This document shows, piece by piece, positions 8,211-14,997 of a DNA stretch of 64,000 nt; position 1 is the first letter of the stretch, and each line of letters opens with the position of its first letter. The position numbers were made by a program, and so were the translations under genes. The stretch comes from a virus (taxonomy: Duplodnaviria > Caudoviricetes): IMG/VR virus record IMGVR_UViG_3300044675_005052, one strand, 5' to 3'. The notes beneath the pieces were generated by a model. That model did not search any database. It was given only the letters and a program-made list of their open reading frames with translations, and had not been told where the DNA came from.

Positions 8211-8240
8211 AAAAAAGGTGTCATATTCGACACCTTTTTT
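8211..8240. terminator. Bidirectional intrinsic terminator between convergent genes
   Basis: AAAAAAGGTGTC-ATATTC-GACACCTTTTTT perfect 12-bp stem including A/T tracts on both sides. Confidence 0.9.
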
Positions 8241-8623: not shown

Positions 8624-9766
8624 TTATATTACATAAATTTGTCTTGGCATTGCTCTGAATTTAAGTTGTTTGTTTAAATTTTCCGCAATTAATGCTTCAC
8701 GTTCCATCATTTTATCAGGTCGTAATCTTTCTAATCTTAATTTCAATTCTTCTTCAAGTTTTGATTTCTCATCTTTACCTTCAGTTGCTAAAGTGGCGTA
8801 ATCCATCGTTAACTCACTATCAGGTGTTTTAATGTTACCACTAAATTTACCTCTAACTCTCGATAACGTTTCTTTACAATAAGCGGTGAACCATCTTCTA
8901 ACAAATTGTTGTGAAGGATTATTTAAATCAATCCAAGACATTGAATCAATTGGAACATCCGATGGTAATTTAATAATATCCGGATTGTTTTTTAAACAAT
9001 TATCTCTATCTGCAGGACCAACATCATAATACCAATACCATACTTTACCTCTTGTCATTTCTTGATTACCAAAGTCAAATTTACCACCAGGTGTGTTCAT
9101 TAAGTGAAGGGCTTTTTTACCTTCAGGTAATGCTGTTATGGTATAAGTTAAATCCCCCGCGATAATTCTTCGTTGGATATTAATCTCTTGCATTCTTAAT
9201 AACATATCAAATGCTGGCATCATAAAATATGAACCTGACGCACCCATTTGAGCGAAACCACCCGGTCCACCAAAACCACCACCACCTAAACCACCAAAAG
9301 TCCATGGGTCAAATAGAAGTCCGTTTAATGTTGATGGAGTAAACCATAACACTTCATTTATTTCTCGGTTTGCAGGGATTTCATATATTTGTTGGTTTGG
9401 AACTAACTGAACAAAATCTTTCTTTAATACCCAATCACCTCCGGCTTGTAATCCAACAATTTTAGAGTATGCGTAAGTATATCTTGTTTCCCAATCTAAA
9501 CTTTTAGTGATGAATGCTCTTGATAATGATTCAGTATCTAAATTTAAGTTGTATAAAGAAGTCCATTGAGATTCAATTAACCAATCTTGGATATATTGTG
9601 AATAGTCACCAATAGATAATTCTAATAAACTATCCATCTGTTCGTCTTCTAATTCAATACTTCTTAATGGGGCACCAAGTAAGTGTTTAATTCTTGTATA
9701 TAATTTAGTTCTTTCCGGTTCCGGTATAATTGCAGTTTGGTATGTTGCACCAGTTAATATTGCCAT
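8624..9766 (-). CDS. Neck / head-tail adaptor protein, T4 gp13-like
   Basis: KHLLGAPLRSIELEDEQMDSLLELSIGDYSQY resembles the gp13 N-terminus; C-terminal RVRGKFSG...MDYATLATEGKDEK; late motif upstream. Confidence 0.75.
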   Translation of the reverse strand: MAILTGATYQTAIIPEPERTKLYTRIKHLLGAPLRSIELEDEQMDSLLELSIGDYSQYIQDWLIESQWTSLYNLNLDTESLSRAFITKSLDWETRYTYAYSKIVGLQAGGDWVLKKDFVQLVPNQQIYEIPANREINEVLWFTPSTLNGLLFDPWTFGGLGGGGFGGPGGFAQMGASGSYFMMPAFDMLLRMQEINIQRRIIAGDLTYTITALPEGKKALHLMNTPGGKFDFGNQEMTRGKVWYWYYDVGPADRDNCLKNNPDIIKLPSDVPIDSMSWIDLNNPSQQFVRRWFTAYCKETLSRVRGKFSGNIKTPDSELTMDYATLATEGKDEKSKLEEELKLRLERLRPDKMMEREALIAENLNKQLKFRAMPRQIYVI

Positions 9767-9779
9767 AACGTTTTTATTT

Positions 9780-9787
9780 TATAAATA
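9780..9787 (-). promoter_or_regulatory. Putative late promoter motif TATTTATA
   Basis: 13 nt upstream of the neck gene on the minus strand. Confidence 0.6.
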
Positions 9788-11326
9788 TCAACTTAATGTA
9801 TAAATCAGGTCTTCTTTAGGGAAAATAAACTGACCGTCCATTATTTTTGAATGTTTATTGTCAAAGACCAAAACTTCTTTATTATTACGAGTAAAAATTA
9901 ACCAATCCGTTGAGTATCGTTTAACATTTCCTGTTCCTAAAATCATTATTGAATCTTTAATTTCTTTTTCACCGGTAAATGGTTTAATTTGTGCAGTTTT
10001 TTTAACACCATCAACAATTACTTCACAATCAACACCACCAATCATATCTTCTTTACTCCCAAGTTTACCGATAGCATTAACGTTATCATTACCAAATTGT
10101 TTTTTTAATATTTCAATAGTTTTATCTTCTCTTGATTGTCCCCAACTATTAGTTTGGGTTAAAACTTTCATAAGATTTTGGAATGTGGATGATTTTTGTG
10201 AGAATATTCTAAATTTGTATTCGTCTAAAACGTCAACAAGTTTTCGAACTTCACTTATTTGTTCAAATGGTTTTAGGCCAATCATTTTTATTTCAGGTAA
10301 TTGTTTGGATATTAAAACTTGATTAACATCATTAAGTAAAACACAAAAACAACTATAGTTTGTGTTTAGTTTATTTAAAACTGAACGACCTTGAGTTTCT
10401 AAATCATATACTCCGGCAACTTCACCTTCGGCATATTCGTTATTTCCATAATAGTTGTCGGGAAAAACTTCTTTTAACATTCTGTTAATTCCGTCTTTGA
10501 AGATTGTTTTAACTTTTGGATTGATGTTGAATACCATACGAATCGCCTCATTCATTTCTCTACTACATCTTTCAGATTTACCTTCAGAAATAACAGATTT
10601 TAATTCAGCACTTTCATTTAATTTATTATCCACTCTCATTGTGTATAATTTGTTAACAAATTCCCAATTTACACATTTCCAAAAGTTTTTAATGTAGTCA
10701 TCTTTTTTGTTTCTGTATTTTAGGTAGTAGGCGTGTTCCCATAAATCTAATCCTAAAATTGGGTATCCACCATCTTCAACTACATTCATTAATGGATTGT
10801 CTTGATTTGCGGTAGATACAATTTTTAAGGTGTTTCTTTTTGTTAGGACTAACCAAACCCATCCTGAACCGAATCTATCTTTTGCAATAGTTTCAAATTC
10901 TTTTTTGAAGTTGGCAAATGTATTAAAATCTTTTTTGATTTGTTTGATTACATCACCATTTGGAGTTTGAGTTTTTGGTGATAACATTTTCCAAAATAAT
11001 GCGTGGTTAAATGCTCCTCCTGCATTATTTCTTATAGTTTTATTAAATCTACTGATAGATTTAACTATTTCTTCAAGTTCTAAATCACCATAATCTTTGT
11101 TTTTAAGAGCGGCGTTTAGTTTATCTACGTAACCTTTATAATGTTTGTTATAATGGTAGTTCATTGTTTCAGCATCAATAAATTGCTTTAGTGCTGAATA
11201 GGAATAAGGTAATTTATCGATTCCTATCTTTTTCATCTCATTAAGAAAGAGTGTTTCATTTTCTTGTTTTTCAACATTTTGAATCTCTTCCGTAATGAGT
11301 TTGATTTTATTTTCAATATGTTTCAT
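9788..11326 (-). CDS. sodA: Fe/Mn superoxide dismutase (Mn-type signature) fused to a C-terminal PD-(D/E)xK-like domain
   Basis: LPYSYSAL, HYNKHYKGY, NNAGGAFNHALFW, GSGWVWL, TANQDNP, DLWEHAYY (all four metal ligands present); about 270 extra C-terminal aa with D..GGVD and AQIK. Confidence 0.9.
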   Translation of the reverse strand: MKHIENKIKLITEEIQNVEKQENETLFLNEMKKIGIDKLPYSYSALKQFIDAETMNYHYNKHYKGYVDKLNAALKNKDYGDLELEEIVKSISRFNKTIRNNAGGAFNHALFWKMLSPKTQTPNGDVIKQIKKDFNTFANFKKEFETIAKDRFGSGWVWLVLTKRNTLKIVSTANQDNPLMNVVEDGGYPILGLDLWEHAYYLKYRNKKDDYIKNFWKCVNWEFVNKLYTMRVDNKLNESAELKSVISEGKSERCSREMNEAIRMVFNINPKVKTIFKDGINRMLKEVFPDNYYGNNEYAEGEVAGVYDLETQGRSVLNKLNTNYSCFCVLLNDVNQVLISKQLPEIKMIGLKPFEQISEVRKLVDVLDEYKFRIFSQKSSTFQNLMKVLTQTNSWGQSREDKTIEILKKQFGNDNVNAIGKLGSKEDMIGGVDCEVIVDGVKKTAQIKPFTGEKEIKDSIMILGTGNVKRYSTDWLIFTRNNKEVLVFDNKHSKIMDGQFIFPKEDLIYTLS

Positions 11327-11346
11327 TCGGCTTGTTATTTATTTCT

Positions 11347-11354
11347 TATAAATA
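11347..11354 (-). promoter_or_regulatory. Putative late promoter motif TATTTATA
   Basis: 20 nt upstream of the SOD fusion gene. Confidence 0.6.
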
Positions 11355-11368
11355 TCTCAACAAATAGA

Positions 11369-13144
11369 TTATCTTCGGGTGTTGATTTTATTCATAAGTT
11401 CTTCAATGAAGTCACCACTCTCACCAATGTTATCTCCCATAACCGTTCCGATGTTTTGTTTCTTCATATTAACCATATCATAAATTATCCCTTCTATGGT
11501 ATTATCAAAGATTGGGTAATAAACTGATACCGAATTTTTTTGACCATATCTGTATGCTCTATCTTCAGCTTGAGATAAATCTCCCGGAACAAATGATAGG
11601 TCATTCATAATAACTGCTTCAGCGGCGGTCAATGTGATTCCAACACCGGCAGCTTTCACGTTTCCAATGAACACTTTAATTTTTTCGTTTTCTTGGAATT
11701 GGTCAACAGCGTATTGTCGTTGAGGTTTTGCCGTTGAACCATCTAATTTAACCGCCGATTTACCAAAGTGTTCGGAGATTTTATTTAGAGTGTCAGTAAA
11801 GTTAGTAAAAATAATAACTTTCTTACCTTGTTCTATAATATTTTCAGCAAGTTCGATTGTGTCTTTAATTTTTTCTTCAGCAATTACTTGACGAACTTTC
11901 ATTAGTTTACTGAACTGAACCGTTAATGATGTACTTTCATCCGGATTCTTATCATACCAATCATAATACTCACCCATTAACCCTTCATACATTTTAGATT
12001 TTAATCTCAAATAAATTGGAGTGATAATTTTTTCAGGTAAATCTAATACGTCGGTTTTTAATCTTCGTAAAACTTGTCTTGAAGTTCGGTCTCTTAATTC
12101 TTCCAAATTTGATGCTCCGGTAACGTTCCATATTTTACGACTTCCCGCAGTGAATTGATAACCTTGACAATATCTAATAGCGTAAGCCATCCAATTCTGA
12201 GCAACAGGACTTTCAATTAATGCCAACAGATTAAAGTAGTTCATTGGTCTATTGGTCATAGGTGTCCCGGTTAATAACCAAAGTTTATCCACTTTTTTAC
12301 AGAAACTATTAACCAATTTGGTTCTTGCTGCTTGACCATTACTCACATAATGTGCCTCATCTAAAATAATAAGGTCAAAATTTCCTTGAGTTATTAATGA
12401 ATTTTCTTTGTCTTTTAAATCGTAGAAGTTTTTAAGAATATCGTAATTAACAATTACAAAATCGTGTTCAATTGAAAAGTTTTTACCTTCAGCAATGTAA
12501 ACACTTCTATCTGTATAATTTGCAATCTCTCTTTGCCAGTTAATCTTCAGAGATGCCGGACAAACAATTAATATTTTTTTAGCACCACTCTCTAAAGCCG
12601 CGATAACGGTAATGGTTGTTTTACCAAGACCCATATCATCCGCCAATATGAATCGTTTTGACCCAACTAATTTTTCAATAGCAATTGGTTGATGTTCAAG
12701 AGGTGGTCTATGACTATATTTACTATAATCAATTTTCACATCTTTAATAACGTGGGTTTTAATTAAAGCACCTTTTGGTAGCCAAAAATCGTGGATAGTT
12801 TCACCTTCCGTAATTTTTCCCCAAACATGATAGGATTTGTCTTTCTCAACTAATAGCTTTTCAACCCATATTTGTTCAGGAATCGTGGTTAGTAATTTTT
12901 CATCGGCAATCTTTTTAGCAAAGTAAGGGTCTAAATCAACCCATCTTTTGGCTACCTTTGGTGTTACTCCGTAATAATTAATGATATAGTCAGATTGTGC
13001 CCGAGTAGGGTAAAATCTTTTATTGGTGTCCTTTTGTAGTTTTAATTTAAGGATATAGTTATTCGCCCCCTCGTAAGTATCAAGGAGAGATATTGCTTTC
13101 TGTTCTATTGTTAAATTAGAATTTTCTGATGTATTGTTTTCCAA
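11369..13144 (-). CDS. SNF2/SWI2-family (HARP/SMARCAL1-like) helicase, TTG start
   Basis: LADDMGLGKT, DEAHY, LTGTPMTN, QAEDRAYRYGQ. Confidence 0.92.
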   Translation of the reverse strand: MENNTSENSNLTIEQKAISLLDTYEGANNYILKLKLQKDTNKRFYPTRAQSDYIINYYGVTPKVAKRWVDLDPYFAKKIADEKLLTTIPEQIWVEKLLVEKDKSYHVWGKITEGETIHDFWLPKGALIKTHVIKDVKIDYSKYSHRPPLEHQPIAIEKLVGSKRFILADDMGLGKTTITVIAALESGAKKILIVCPASLKINWQREIANYTDRSVYIAEGKNFSIEHDFVIVNYDILKNFYDLKDKENSLITQGNFDLIILDEAHYVSNGQAARTKLVNSFCKKVDKLWLLTGTPMTNRPMNYFNLLALIESPVAQNWMAYAIRYCQGYQFTAGSRKIWNVTGASNLEELRDRTSRQVLRRLKTDVLDLPEKIITPIYLRLKSKMYEGLMGEYYDWYDKNPDESTSLTVQFSKLMKVRQVIAEEKIKDTIELAENIIEQGKKVIIFTNFTDTLNKISEHFGKSAVKLDGSTAKPQRQYAVDQFQENEKIKVFIGNVKAAGVGITLTAAEAVIMNDLSFVPGDLSQAEDRAYRYGQKNSVSVYYPIFDNTIEGIIYDMVNMKKQNIGTVMGDNIGESGDFIEELMNKINTRR

Positions 13145-13192: not shown

Positions 13193-13708
13193 ATGAGTAG
13201 AAATTTAGTACCAATTACAAGAATAGGTAAATTCTTCGGAGCGGAGGATTACAATTTAGACATCTCTATGGGGGAGGAATGGTTATATGGTGATATGAAC
13301 TTTACGTTAGTCCTGTATAAGGTAGACAGATTGAAAACCAAAACAGATGATGTTTATGGTGAGGTAATGACTGATGGTATAAAATATTTACCACCAATTG
13401 AGTTTAAAGCTTATGTTCAAATACTTCCACCTGAAACCAAATACTTGGGTAATTCAAAAATTACACAATCAGAACCTGGTAATATGAAGTTTGCGATTTA
13501 CGCCGCTCAACTTAACGATTTAGGGGTTCAAATTAATTATGGGGATTATATTGGTTATTATGAAACAGAAACAAAAGTTAGATATTACGTGGTTAGCGAT
13601 GACGGAAGAATTAATTCAGATAATAAACATACATATGCCGGTTATAAACCATTTTATAAATCATATGTAGCAACTCCGGTAACGGAAAACGAATTTAGAG
13701 GATTATAA
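13193..13708 (+). CDS. Head closure / neck protein, T4 gp14-like
   Basis: Size, position near gp13-like and gp15-like genes; DDVYGE...PIEFKAYV...GDYIGY pattern; late motif upstream. Confidence 0.55.
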   Translation: MSRNLVPITRIGKFFGAEDYNLDISMGEEWLYGDMNFTLVLYKVDRLKTKTDDVYGEVMTDGIKYLPPIEFKAYVQILPPETKYLGNSKITQSEPGNMKFAIYAAQLNDLGVQINYGDYIGYYETETKVRYYVVSDDGRINSDNKHTYAGYKPFYKSYVATPVTENEFRGL

Positions 13709-14061
13709 TGAAAGTAATAATAACAGAATCTAGATTACACAACATTGTAATTAAATTTCTAAACTCCGAATATGGAGATTTGAAATTGTATGATTATAAT
13801 AAATTTCTCATTTTATTAATAAAAGATGGTGAAATTATATTTGATTACAATACAAAAAGTAATGTGGTACATATTTCATATAAACACATTGGACATTATT
13901 TGGAAAGTCTTTTCGGTATGGGAAATAGACAGATTGGTGAGGTTATTAAGTTATGGGTGGAGGAGTATTATAATTTACCAGTAAAGGCGGTAACTACCAA
14001 TAACGATTTTCATGAAAATATTGTGTGGAGGGACATCTTAAAACAAATCAACAAAATATGA
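13708..14061 (+). CDS. Hypothetical protein with MKVIITE leader (paralog of next gene)
   Basis: TAATG overlap with previous gene; C-terminal WVEEYYNLPVKAV. Confidence 0.8.
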   Translation: MKVIITESRLHNIVIKFLNSEYGDLKLYDYNKFLILLIKDGEIIFDYNTKSNVVHISYKHIGHYLESLFGMGNRQIGEVIKLWVEEYYNLPVKAVTTNNDFHENIVWRDILKQINKI

Positions 14062-14471
14062 AACTAATAATAACAGAAAATAAACTATTCAATTCAATAT
14101 ACAATTATATTGATAAAACATTTAATTCAAGTAAAATGGATTGGGTTTATGGTATGGATGAAGATGAAGATGGATATCCTGATGTTGATAGAGAAAACGA
14201 AAACTTTTTAATGTTCTTTGAAGGTGATTATCAAGGTATTTATGATACTGATATTATTTTTTATTATTTTGATGTTGATTATTATAATACTGAACCATCA
14301 CATAAACCTTTTAGAGATAAAGCACCAATTTTAGAAGTTATTGGTAAGCACGCGGAACATTTAGATGACATGTTTGAAGGACATTGGGAAGAACCTATGA
14401 AAAAATGGTTTGAAGATAATTTTAATTTACCTGTTAAATCAGTATCCACATATTACGATTATGAAAATTAA
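14058..14471 (+). CDS. Hypothetical protein with MKLIITE leader
   Basis: ATG at 14058 overlaps the previous stop and is preferred to the track start at 14025; C-terminal WFEDNFNLPVKSV. Confidence 0.8.
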   Translation: MKLIITENKLFNSIYNYIDKTFNSSKMDWVYGMDEDEDGYPDVDRENENFLMFFEGDYQGIYDTDIIFYYFDVDYYNTEPSHKPFRDKAPILEVIGKHAEHLDDMFEGHWEEPMKKWFEDNFNLPVKSVSTYYDYEN

Positions 14472-14997
14472 AATTAATGAAAGTCAATATAGAAGACTAT
14501 TAGAAACCATTACCGACACAGAAGTGATTTGTGATGAGTGTGGTTGGTCTTGGGCTTTAGCCGATGGTGGAAACGACCCTTATATCTGTCACAAGTGTGG
14601 TCACGATAATGAGGAGAAAAAACATATAGGTGATAAAGTTATGGTTTATTATAACTTACACAAACACACCTTTTCAGTAACCTATGGTGGAAGAGTTATT
14701 ACTCATGCCGACTATGTTAAATTATCAGATGTTGAATTTAGAGTTAGACAAGGTGGAAGAGAAAAAGTAGTTAGAGAAAAAAGTAAAAATGTTCATTCAT
14801 TTGTAATTGGAACATTAATGGATTATTGTAAATATCCTTGTGAAAATTTACCAAGTGAACCAAATGATAACGTAGTTACCTATAATCCATATAAATACAA
14901 TTCTTATGTTATAAAAGACACCGAAGAACCAATATACCGTGCCGGTGAAGTTGAAATGATAAACTTAAGAAACAAAATATTTATAACAAAACAATAA
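14461..14997 (+). CDS. Hypothetical protein with MKIKINE leader, CxxC...CxxC zinc ribbon and a C-terminal domain of unknown function
   Basis: ATG at 14461 preferred to the track start at 14410; CDECGWSW...PYICHKCG. Confidence 0.8.
   Translation: MKIKINESQYRRLLETITDTEVICDECGWSWALADGGNDPYICHKCGHDNEEKKHIGDKVMVYYNLHKHTFSVTYGGRVITHADYVKLSDVEFRVRQGGREKVVREKSKNVHSFVIGTLMDYCKYPCENLPSEPNDNVVTYNPYKYNSYVIKDTEEPIYRAGEVEMINLRNKIFITKQ
14978..14985 (+). promoter_or_regulatory. Putative late promoter motif TATTTATA
   Basis: 13 nt upstream of the gp15-like gene. Confidence 0.55.

What the first reader, a model, noticed from the sequence alone, without database searches (positions are those of the whole stretch)
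9788..11326. Superoxide dismutase fused to a PD-(D/E)xK-like nuclease domain, flanked by candidate prohead-protease sites and under a late motif
Seen: a complete Mn-type SOD (H, H, D, H ligands; GG and Gln of TANQD signature) followed by about 270 aa containing WGQSRE, EDMIGGVD and AQIKP. Established: helix-G..E, D..G.D and Q/E-x-K is the PD-(D/E)xK layout, with QxK in Mrr-like members. The SOD is bracketed by L/I-x-E motifs (LITE and FLNE before it; KLNE-S and VISE-G after it), matching T4 gp21 specificity. Inference: a late-expressed polyprotein packaged in the head and cut into a SOD and a nuclease-like protein, protecting the virion or early infection from superoxide and/or delivering a nuclease. 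I do not recognise this fusion from characterised proteins.
Basis: partly seen in the sequence, partly recalled or inferred. Interest (0 to 1): 0.75.

Follow-up and report, generated by a model that had tools for sequence, protein, structure and literature searches.

The report
Phage SOD inserted into nuclease-fold protein
An uncultured T4-related giant lake phage carries a complete superoxide dismutase spliced into the leader of a phage-only protein with a restriction-enzyme-like fold, and the joints look like the cut sites T4 uses to load and trim proteins inside its head, so it may be an antioxidant-plus-nuclease cargo injected with the DNA, though no one has measured this.

Summary
Window 9788-11326 (-) is one 512-aa ORF. 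It has a 30-aa leader and a complete Mn-type SOD (31-235, all four ligands). A disordered linker follows, then a confidently folded helical domain with no known fold (252-391). The last domain (392-512) has a PD-(D/E)xK nuclease fold with conserved E400, D427, D433 and Q446-x-K448.

The host gene without SOD sits at the same place, just upstream of the T4 gp13-like neck gene, in related ~300-kb phages. A complete 318-kb relative has no SOD at all, and its copy keeps a 10-residue SOD scar. SOD is therefore an accessory insert that was gained once and lost repeatedly.

L/I-x-E motifs flank the SOD and are nearly invariant across the fused forms. The lineage has a T4-type head module with a gp21 protease. 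Its capsid protein keeps an I-N-E|A site where I recall T4 gp23 is cut. A promoter-like motif shared with neck and tail genes precedes the gene.

Best reading (about 45%): a late head cargo cut into free SOD and a nuclease-like protein. Virion location, cleavage and both activities are untested. The scan noted this same fusion before on other phage DNA. No paper describing it was found.

The parts
11346..11355 (-). Promoter-like motif ATATTTATAA, 20 nt upstream of the ATG
   Evidence: Exact match. TATTTAT[ATC] lies in sense orientation 3-58 nt (mostly 11-22 nt) upstream of 14 of 39 ORFs, against about 1 expected. Most of these are neck, sheath, tube and baseplate genes. Timing is inferred, not shown.
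11237..11326 (-). Leader, residues 1-30. It has L-I-T-E (10-13) and ends in F-L-N-E|M.
   Evidence: A leader is also present in SOD-less homologues of 294 and 309 aa. At the leader-SOD junction, E is present in 32 of 32 and L/I in 31 of 32 distinct fused forms.
10622..11236 (-). Complete Mn-type Fe/Mn superoxide dismutase, residues 31-235. It still begins with M-K-K, like a captured whole ORF.
   Evidence: Pfam PF00081 and PF02777. E about 1e-59 to solved Mn-SODs over the full length. H58, H108, D194 and H198 lie in the ligand motifs; Q175, G103 and G104 are present.
10574..10621 (-). Linker, residues 236-251, with two L/I-x-E sites exactly 10 residues apart (K-L-N-E|S and V-I-S-E|G)
   Evidence: pLDDT is 50-70 over the first 20 modelled residues (235-254). 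Each site is kept in 36 of 40 distinct linkers, down to forms whose C-domain is only 31-40% identical.
10154..10573 (-). Helical domain, residues 252-391. No known fold. Contains a conserved S-x-x-N motif.
   Evidence: AF2 alone gives pLDDT 96.9. The best PDB match is Z 4.5, and there is no AFDB cluster match better than E 0.057. S and N are nearly invariant.
9791..10153 (-). PD-(D/E)xK nuclease-fold domain, residues 392-512, with E400, D427, D433 and Q446-x-K448
   Evidence: VIA-align matches: Hjc 2wcw Z 8.2 (101 aligned, rmsd 3.5), NhoI Z 7.5, I-Ssp6803I Z 7.1, HhaI Z 6.8. Foldseek against PDB, AFDB, BFVD and the atlas gives hits dominated by PD-(D/E)xK nucleases, apart from the family's own members in BFVD and the atlas.
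8624..9766 (-). Downstream gene: T4 gp13-like neck protein with its own copy of the motif (9779-9788)
   Evidence: phrog_211 head-tail adaptor Ad2. Relatives carry PF26809 Phage_T4_gp13 at the same position. Motif.
8211..8240 (.). Two-way terminator-like hairpin that closes the SOD-X / neck / 126-aa gene row against the converging polB gene
   Evidence: Stem of 12-13 pairs followed by a T run on both strands.

Best explanation
SHOWN.
- This is one real gene of an uncultured, T4-related jumbo phage of about 300 kb.
- Its ancestral product, called X here, has a short leader, a phage-specific helical domain and a PD-(D/E)xK nuclease-fold domain. X is encoded just upstream of the gp13-like neck gene.
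- The SOD still starts with M-K-K and ends at a normal SOD C-terminus. It sits inside the leader/linker region of X.
- The fused form persists in many lineages, almost always at 512 aa. It has been lost again in others. One clade keeps the first 10 SOD residues as a scar.

INFERRED FROM THE COMPARISONS. A whole Mn-type SOD reading frame was inserted once, and the fused state was then inherited and repeatedly lost.

INFERRED MECHANISM.
1. The gene is transcribed with the structural genes from the TATTTATAA-type promoter.
2. The leader takes the protein into the prohead core, in the way T4 capsid-targeting sequences do.
3. The phage's gp21-type prohead protease cuts after the conserved Glu of L/I-x-E at E30, E238 and E248, and perhaps at E13.
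4. This frees a near-native SOD (M31 to about E238) and mature X (from G249) inside the head.
5. Both leave with the DNA at infection. The SOD removes superoxide at the very start of infection. X binds or cuts DNA through the E400/D427/D433/Q446/K448 site.
For: - Architecture and folds.
- Same locus with and without SOD.
- The complete 318-kb relative G001 has no SOD anywhere. Its X keeps 'E-M-K-K-I-E-I-E-K-L' and nests inside the fused clade with 97% support.
- SOD parts of distant fused forms are 67-75% identical to this one. The best cellular SODs are at most 53% identical. The C-domains are only 31-40% identical. Together this points to a single capture.
- The junction motifs are nearly invariant although they lie in low-confidence, otherwise variable segments.
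- The lineage has the T4 head gene order: portal, two small genes, gp21 protease (PF03420, 1e-23), a 516-aa acidic protein, gp23.
- Its gp23 homologue reads S-F-L-I-N-E|A. I recall the T4 gp23 cut site as S-F-L-T-E|A (for this phage; the T4 sequence is from memory).
- The X leader ends L-F-L-N-E|M.
- In T4, short N-terminal propeptides target unrelated proteins to the head, gp21 removes them, and foreign enzymes fused to them are packaged and injected (PMC9026906, read).
- In G001, 28 of 388 ORFs begin with an M-K-x-I-I-T-E-like leader, against 0.3% at internal Met positions. Three such genes are in this window.
- The promoter-like motif is shared with neck and tail genes.
- Precedent for a late-expressed, virion-packaged viral SOD: chlorovirus PBCV-1 (PMC7019647).
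Against: - No virion proteome, no cleavage data and no enzyme assay exist, because no cultured phage carries X.
- L/I-x-E is short. In this single protein its count is not above chance.
- The conserved motifs could instead serve helix packing, or M31 could be an internal start codon.
- The X leader is 30 aa long and not of the M-K-x-I-I-T-E type at its very N-terminus.
- Distant X homologues lie beside DNA-metabolism genes (denV, a helicase, thymidine kinase), not neck genes.
- The same motif also lies 58 nt before polB, so 'late' is not proven.
- The window's own record is a 34% fragment that lacks the head module. The protease is shown only in an 89%-identical relative.
Confidence: 0.45

Rival explanations
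1. Unprocessed cytoplasmic two-function enzyme. X is a DNA-metabolism nuclease (repair, recombination, or degradation of host or competitor DNA). The SOD merely shares its expression and acts in the infected cell. The conserved L/I-x-E residues are structural.
For: Distant X homologues sit next to denV, helicase and thymidine kinase genes. In this window X lies between an SNF2 helicase and polB. The nearest folds are restriction enzymes, homing endonucleases and Hjc resolvases. The L/I-x-E count is not above chance in the single sequence.
Against: This reading does not explain several observations. The SOD is inserted after a leader rather than placed as a separate gene. The same three sites are kept while the C-domain drifts to 31% identity. 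The gene carries the promoter-like motif of the structural genes, whereas the helicase upstream has a sigma-70-like site instead.
Confidence: 0.3
2. X is a head-completion or packaging nuclease that works with the neck proteins. It would be a functional stand-in for T4 gp4, or a branch-resolving enzyme like T4 endonuclease VII or Hjc. The SOD is a passenger.
For: The gene lies immediately upstream of the gp13-like neck gene in all close relatives. T4 gp4 is itself a PD-(D/E)xK protein (PF08722) and sources name its homologues 'head completion nuclease'. The complete relative has no convincing gp4: the only match is 20 bits, in a 294-aa ORF lying between two dUTPase-like ORFs. The best fold match is a Holliday-junction resolvase. 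hhalign pairs D...Q-I-K-P of X with D...E-V-K-P of gp4.
Against: The profile-profile match to the gp4 family is not significant (probability 1.8%, 23 columns). X does not match PF08722. The X family is not tied to neck genes in distant phages. This reading gives no role to the leader or to the conserved cut-site-like motifs.
Confidence: 0.15
3. The nuclease fold is catalytically dead (Q in place of the usual acidic residue). X would then be a DNA-binding or structural protein, for example one that binds or protects DNA ends inside the head.
For: Q446 replaces the D/E of the classic motif in every member. The mature size of about 264 aa is close to that of T4 gp2 (274 aa).
Against: E400, D427, D433 and K448 are invariant or nearly so, which is what an active metal site needs. 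From my own knowledge, Q-x-K variants occur in active Mrr-type enzymes; this was not tested here. There is no similarity to T4 gp2.
Confidence: 0.07
4. Assembly chimera or read-through artefact that joins two separate genes.
For: None found.
Against: Forty-nine of the 120 closest homologue clusters are 512-aa forms, from many samples and sources, and several lie on contigs over 100 kb. The fused forms found in the two searches, 55 in all, share the same leader-SOD junction. Apparent 283-aa 'split' forms are gene calls cut by contig ends.
Confidence: 0.01

Closest known systems
T4 internal head proteins (IPI, IPII, IPIII, Alt) with capsid-targeting sequences cut by gp21
   Same: Short N-terminal leader ending in L/I-x-E. 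The phage has a gp21-type protease and the T4 head gene order. In T4, unrelated enzymes, including nucleases, can be carried into the head this way and injected (PMC9026906).
   Different: There is no sequence similarity to any T4 internal protein. The leader is 30 aa, not 7-10. Two cargos sit in one chain with cut-site-like motifs on both sides of the first, which I have not seen described for T4. Packaging is unproven here.
Bacterial Mn-type Fe/Mn superoxide dismutases (e.g. E. coli SodA, PDB 1d5n)
   Same: Full-length match, all four ligands, and the Mn-type Gly-Gly and Gln positions. About 50% identity to Bacteroidota and enterobacterial SODs.
   Different: The SOD is embedded in a larger phage protein between a leader and a linker. 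It forms its own phage clade, 67-75% identical within the clade and at most 53% identical to any cellular SOD found.
Small PD-(D/E)xK nucleases: archaeal Hjc resolvase, I-Ssp6803I homing endonuclease, NhoI/Eco15I and HhaI restriction enzymes
   Same: Core fold and the order helix-E, strand-D, strand-(Q)xK (Z 6.8-8.2).
   Different: Identity is only 5-16%. No Pfam family matches. Gln stands in the (D/E) position and there is an extra invariant Asp (D427). The domain is preceded by a 140-aa helical domain with no known fold.
T4 gp4 head completion nuclease (Pfam PF08722, TnsA-like)
   Same: PD-(D/E)xK protein of a T4-type phage linked to head completion. It has a D...E-x-K-P motif resembling D...Q-I-K-P. 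X lies next to the neck gene, and no clear gp4 was found in the complete relative.
   Different: No significant profile match. gp4 is 150 aa and has no leader, helical domain or SOD.
Virion-packaged Cu/Zn SOD of chlorovirus PBCV-1 (A245R)
   Same: A virus-encoded SOD that is expressed late and carried in the particle, thought to lower superoxide early in infection (PMC7019647).
   Different: It belongs to a different SOD family (Cu/Zn), comes from a eukaryotic virus, is a free-standing gene, and has no protease-site architecture.

Membership tests
Fe/Mn superoxide dismutase (Pfam PF00081 + PF02777) | Both domains score above the curated cut-offs | tested here: met
   82.6 bits against a cut-off of 27, and 134.4 bits against 20.9.
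Fe/Mn superoxide dismutase (Pfam PF00081 + PF02777) | Four metal ligands (His, His, Asp, His), plus the outer-sphere His/Tyr and the Gln | tested here: met
   H58, H108, D194 and H198 lie in the motifs that carry the ligands in solved Mn-SODs. H62, Y66 and Q175 are also present.
Fe/Mn superoxide dismutase (Pfam PF00081 + PF02777) | Dismutase activity and metal preference | not testable with these tools
   The Mn-type sequence signature (G103-G104, Q in NQD) is only a predictor.
PD-(D/E)xK nuclease superfamily | Core alpha-beta-beta-beta fold | tested here: met
   Z 8.2, 7.5, 7.1 and 6.8 to Hjc, NhoI, I-Ssp6803I and HhaI over residues 392-512. The top rows are almost all PD-(D/E)xK proteins; searches agree.
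PD-(D/E)xK nuclease superfamily | Catalytic pattern: E on the first helix, D at the start of the second strand, (D/E)-x-K on the third strand | tested here: inconclusive
   E400, D433 and K448 sit on the expected elements of the model. The (D/E) position is always Gln (Q446). I could not superpose side chains on a solved active site.
PD-(D/E)xK nuclease superfamily | Metal-dependent nuclease activity | not testable with these tools
   Needs an assay.
T4 gp4 head completion nuclease (PF08722) | Match to the family profile | tested here: not met
   No PF08722 hit for X or for 58 homologues. hhalign of the X family against 16 gp4 homologues gives probability 1.8% over 23 columns.
T4-type head cargo (capsid-targeting leader cut by gp21) | N-terminal propeptide ending in L/I-x-E | tested here: met
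   L-I-T-E at 10-13 and F-L-N-E at 27-30. The junction is conserved in 31-32 of 32 distinct forms.
T4-type head cargo (capsid-targeting leader cut by gp21) | The phage encodes a gp21-family prohead protease | tested here: met
   PF03420 at 1e-23 in the complete relative G001, inside a T4-order head module. The window's own 98.7-kb fragment lacks that region.
T4-type head cargo (capsid-targeting leader cut by gp21) | Presence in the prohead or virion, and cleavage at the sites | not testable with these tools
   No cultured relative and no proteome.
Archaeal Hjc Holliday-junction resolvase (PF01870) | Match to the family profile | tested here: not met
   No Pfam hit. The fold match alone is Z 8.2 at 9% identity.

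The most novel reading that the evidence does not exclude
A natural 'cargo cassette'. A T4-related phage lineage inserted a whole antioxidant enzyme between the capsid-targeting leader and the body of a head-internal nuclease-like protein, with prohead-protease sites on both sides. The virion would then carry free SOD and a nuclease and inject them with the genome. This would be the first SOD-loaded phage particle. It would also be a natural counterpart of the engineered T4 CTS-fusion packaging system.
Probability: 0.35. Interest if true: 0.8.

Novelty: new variant of a known kind. Interest (0 to 1): 0.6.

Why it matters
If the cargo reading is right, phages can add new enzymes to their injected payload by dropping a gene into a leader that already carries targeting and cut signals. 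It would also mean that oxidative stress in the first seconds of infection matters enough for a lake phage to carry its own SOD.

The finding defines a widespread, phage-only protein family: 189 clusters at 50% identity, all from uncultured phages. The family has a confidently predicted helical domain of unknown fold and a Q-x-K variant nuclease site, and it has no annotation today.

The repeated loss of the SOD, down to a 10-residue scar, gives natural with/without pairs for testing what the SOD contributes.

Tried and rejected
- Sequence libraries. Pfam, PHROGs and NCBIfam gave nothing for residues 235-512. Over 58 homologues there were only single weak hits (Mrr_cat_2 and RE_EcoO109I, each at E 0.0045 in one member) and a weak match of 7 members to phrog_5018, a family of unknown function.
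- A profile search of PDB sequences gave nothing significant.
- Helical domain alone. The best PDB match is Z 4.5 and nothing significant appears in AFDB. I take it as having no recognisable fold.
- T4 gp2 (DNA end protector): no similarity.
- T4 gp4: not significant, either with the single sequence or with a 16-sequence profile.
- 'Split' versions of the gene. The 283-aa and 289-aa forms begin at an internal Met because the contig ends there, so they are not true split genes. Some changes counted on the tree are therefore artefacts. The 309-aa scar clade and the 294-aa clade are real SOD-less forms.
- A DNA direct repeat flanking the SOD insert: only a loose resemblance around the two L-N-E codons.
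- Donor of the SOD: not resolved. The best cellular hits are about 50% identical, mostly Bacteroidota. The 62% hit in a 'Polynucleobacter' MAG is itself a phage contig carrying a 517-aa fused gene.
- Cultured relatives for proteome data: none. Only uncultured megaphage records match.
- Homodimer prediction for X (complex prediction): no verdict, so it is not used either way.
- The search for related loci with the diverse alignment failed because it had no conserved stretch to search with.
Full report
**What is there.** Window 9788-11326 on the minus strand is one uninterrupted 512-aa ORF. The window belongs to a 98.7-kb IMG/VR virus record that CheckV rates at 34% complete, so the genome is about 300 kb. 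Around the ORF, on the same strand, lie an SNF2-type helicase (11369-13144), this gene, a T4 gp13-like neck protein (8624-9766) and a 126-aa gene. A two-way hairpin terminator closes the row against a converging family-B DNA polymerase gene.

**The SOD.**
- Pfam finds both halves of an Fe/Mn SOD at residues 36-226, well above the cut-offs.
- Residues 31-235 align over their full length with solved Mn-SODs at E about 1e-59.
- H58, H108, D194 and H198 sit in the motifs that carry the four metal ligands. The outer-sphere H62, Y66 and Q175 and the Mn-type Gly-Gly are present.
- The domain begins M-K-K-I-G-I-D-K-L-P-Y and ends like a normal SOD, so it looks like a whole captured reading frame of about 205 aa.

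**The rest of the protein.** No sequence library recognises residues 235-512.

An exhaustive search found 189 clusters at 50% identity. A word-based search found 367 close relatives. Where taxa are given, the structure and atlas matches to the family's own clusters are all viral.

In an alignment of 58 diverse members, G396, D427, D433, Q446 and K448 are invariant and E400 is nearly so. AlphaFold2 on that alignment gives pLDDT 93.5.

The last 120 residues match PD-(D/E)xK enzymes in every library tried:
- Hjc: Z 8.2, 101 residues aligned, rmsd 3.5
- NhoI: Z 7.5
- I-Ssp6803I: Z 7.1
- HhaI: Z 6.8
- followed by RecU-like, DpnI, PvuII and tRNA-splicing endonuclease folds.

In the model, E400 lies on the long helix, D433 at the start of a strand and Q446-x-K448 on the next strand. 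This is the canonical order.

Residues 252-391 were modelled alone at pLDDT 96.9. They form a helical domain with no convincing structural relative: best Z is 4.5 and AFDB gives nothing significant.

**How the fusion arose.** In close relatives the same slot between the helicase and the neck gene holds either the 512-aa form or an SOD-less form of 294 or 309 aa.

The SOD-less forms keep an N-terminal leader like that of the fused form. The SOD is therefore an insertion behind the leader, not a simple N-terminal fusion.

The 309-aa forms read ...I-N-E-M-K-K-I-E-I-E-K-L and then run straight into the linker. They keep the first ten residues of the SOD frame. They also nest inside the fused clade with 97% support. 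They are therefore secondary deletions.

The complete 318-kb relative that carries this scar has no SOD anywhere in its genome.

Fused forms occur in deep branches of the family, and their junctions are the same. Their SOD parts are 67-75% identical to this one. Their C-domains are only 31-40% identical. The best cellular SOD among representative genomes of 185,579 species is at most 53% identical. One capture followed by inheritance and repeated loss fits best.

Apparent 283-aa 'split' forms are gene calls truncated by contig ends.

The fusion is already in public databases, for example a 501-aa UniProt entry named only 'superoxide dismutase' from an uncultured phage and JGI 'Fe-Mn family superoxide dismutase' entries. 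My literature searches found no paper describing it.

**The cut-site-like motifs.** Counting L/I-x-E in this single protein is not informative: 10 sites against 6.1 +/- 2.2 in shuffles. Conservation is informative.
- Across 32 distinct leader-SOD junctions, the Glu before M31 is invariant and the L/I two residues earlier is kept in 31. The rest of the leader varies freely.
- Across 40 distinct linkers, two L/I-x-E sites exactly ten residues apart are each kept in 36, including the most divergent members.
- Residues 235-254, which cover this linker, are modelled with low confidence (pLDDT 50-70).
- SOD-less 294-aa forms keep an L/I-x-E at residue 28, at the end of their leader.

**Does the lineage have the matching protease?** Yes. 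The complete relative has the T4 head gene order: a gp20-type portal, two small genes, a gp21-family protease (PF03420, 1e-23), a 516-aa acidic protein, and a gp23-type capsid protein.

The capsid protein reads S-F-L-I-N-E|A-T-S. I recall the T4 gp23 cut as S-F-L-T-E|A-E-I. The X leader ends L-F-L-N-E|M.

In T4, short N-terminal propeptides target unrelated proteins to the prohead core and gp21 removes them. Foreign enzymes fused to such a tag, among them EcoRI and staphylococcal nuclease, are packaged and injected (PMC9026906).

In the complete relative, 28 of 388 ORFs begin with an M-K-x-I-I-T-E-like leader, against 0.3% at internal Met positions. Three of these genes lie in this window at 13708-14997. 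Many of them look like paralogues, so this shows a shared leader, not its function.

**Expression.** ATATTTATAA lies 20 nt upstream of the ATG. TATTTAT[ATC] precedes 14 of 39 ORFs in sense orientation, usually 11-22 nt from the start, where about one would be expected from a uniform spread. The genes concerned are mostly neck, sheath, tube and baseplate genes. The helicase upstream has a sigma-70-like site instead. One copy lies 58 nt before polB. The motif is therefore promoter-like and linked to structural genes, but 'late' is an inference.

**Reading.** The best-supported mechanism is a late protein that enters the prohead through its leader. The gp21-type protease then cuts it into a near-native SOD and a mature nuclease-like protein, and both are ejected with the DNA. 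I put this at about 45%.

The main rival, at about 30%, is an uncut cytoplasmic two-function enzyme. Its support is that distant family members sit beside denV, helicase and thymidine kinase genes rather than neck genes.

A third reading, at about 15%, makes X a head-completion or branch-resolving nuclease that works with the neck proteins.
- For it: T4 gp4 is a PD-(D/E)xK protein, no clear gp4 is present in the complete relative, and the best fold match is a junction resolvase.
- Against it: the profile comparison with the gp4 family is not significant.

A catalytically dead fold is possible because Gln replaces the usual acidic residue. However, the other four site residues are invariant.

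A homodimer prediction gave no verdict.

**Standing.**
- Shown: the ORF, the intact SOD, the nuclease fold and its conserved site, the insertion architecture, the scar clade as a secondary loss, the conserved motifs, the T4-type head module and protease in the lineage, and the shared promoter-like motif.
- Inferred: a single gain of the SOD with repeated loss, late timing, capsid targeting, cleavage, ejection, and both enzyme activities.

Other first-stage notes of this scan flagged the same fusion on other phage DNA. One follow-up on a longer variant reached a similar reading. I treated these as leads, not as evidence.

Noticed in passing
window 13708-14997 (three genes); relative G001, loci L122-L137: There is a large set of genes whose products begin M-K-(V/I/L)-I-I-T-E-(S/N). 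In the complete 318-kb relative, 28 of 388 ORFs match a loose form of this leader, against 0.3% at internal Met positions. They occur in several clusters, and their bodies range from 79 to 468 aa. They could be a paralogue family or a T4-style capsid-targeting tag.
   Followed up: partly
L121 9256-11112 (-) in relative G001: The gp23-type capsid protein is 618 aa. It has S-F-L-I-N-E|A at residues 55-61, which matches the T4 gp23 maturation site as I recall it. This suggests that the protease specificity is conserved.
   Followed up: partly
L035 148-2041 in relative G001: A dUTPase-like ORF (226 aa) and a 101-aa ORF that ends like a dUTPase flank a 294-aa ORF with a weak TnsA-like nuclease match (20 bits). 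This looks like a dUTPase gene interrupted by an intein or a homing-endonuclease insert.
   Followed up: no
L039 (contig CAYVBV010000039.1): A 15.9-kb contig binned into an 'uncultured Polynucleobacter' MAG carries the phage SNF2 helicase followed by a 517-aa SOD-X fusion. It is either a mis-binned phage contig or a hint at the host.
   Followed up: no
window 8211-8240: A perfect two-way hairpin terminator (12-13 pairs, T runs on both strands) lies between the converging polB gene and the 126-aa gene.
   Followed up: no
proteins P0218 (660 aa) and P0252 (1109 aa): Longer architectures of the same family exist. One has an SOD followed by more than one X-like module. Another is a 1109-aa protein with X at its C-terminus and no Pfam domain in the first 850 residues.
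   Followed up: partly
L005 5293-5985: In a 310-kb relative with the 294-aa SOD-less form, a 230-aa ORF with no Pfam match lies between the helicase and X, together with a 53-aa ORF that has a weak CcdA match. I did not check whether the 230-aa ORF is a degenerate SOD.
   Followed up: no
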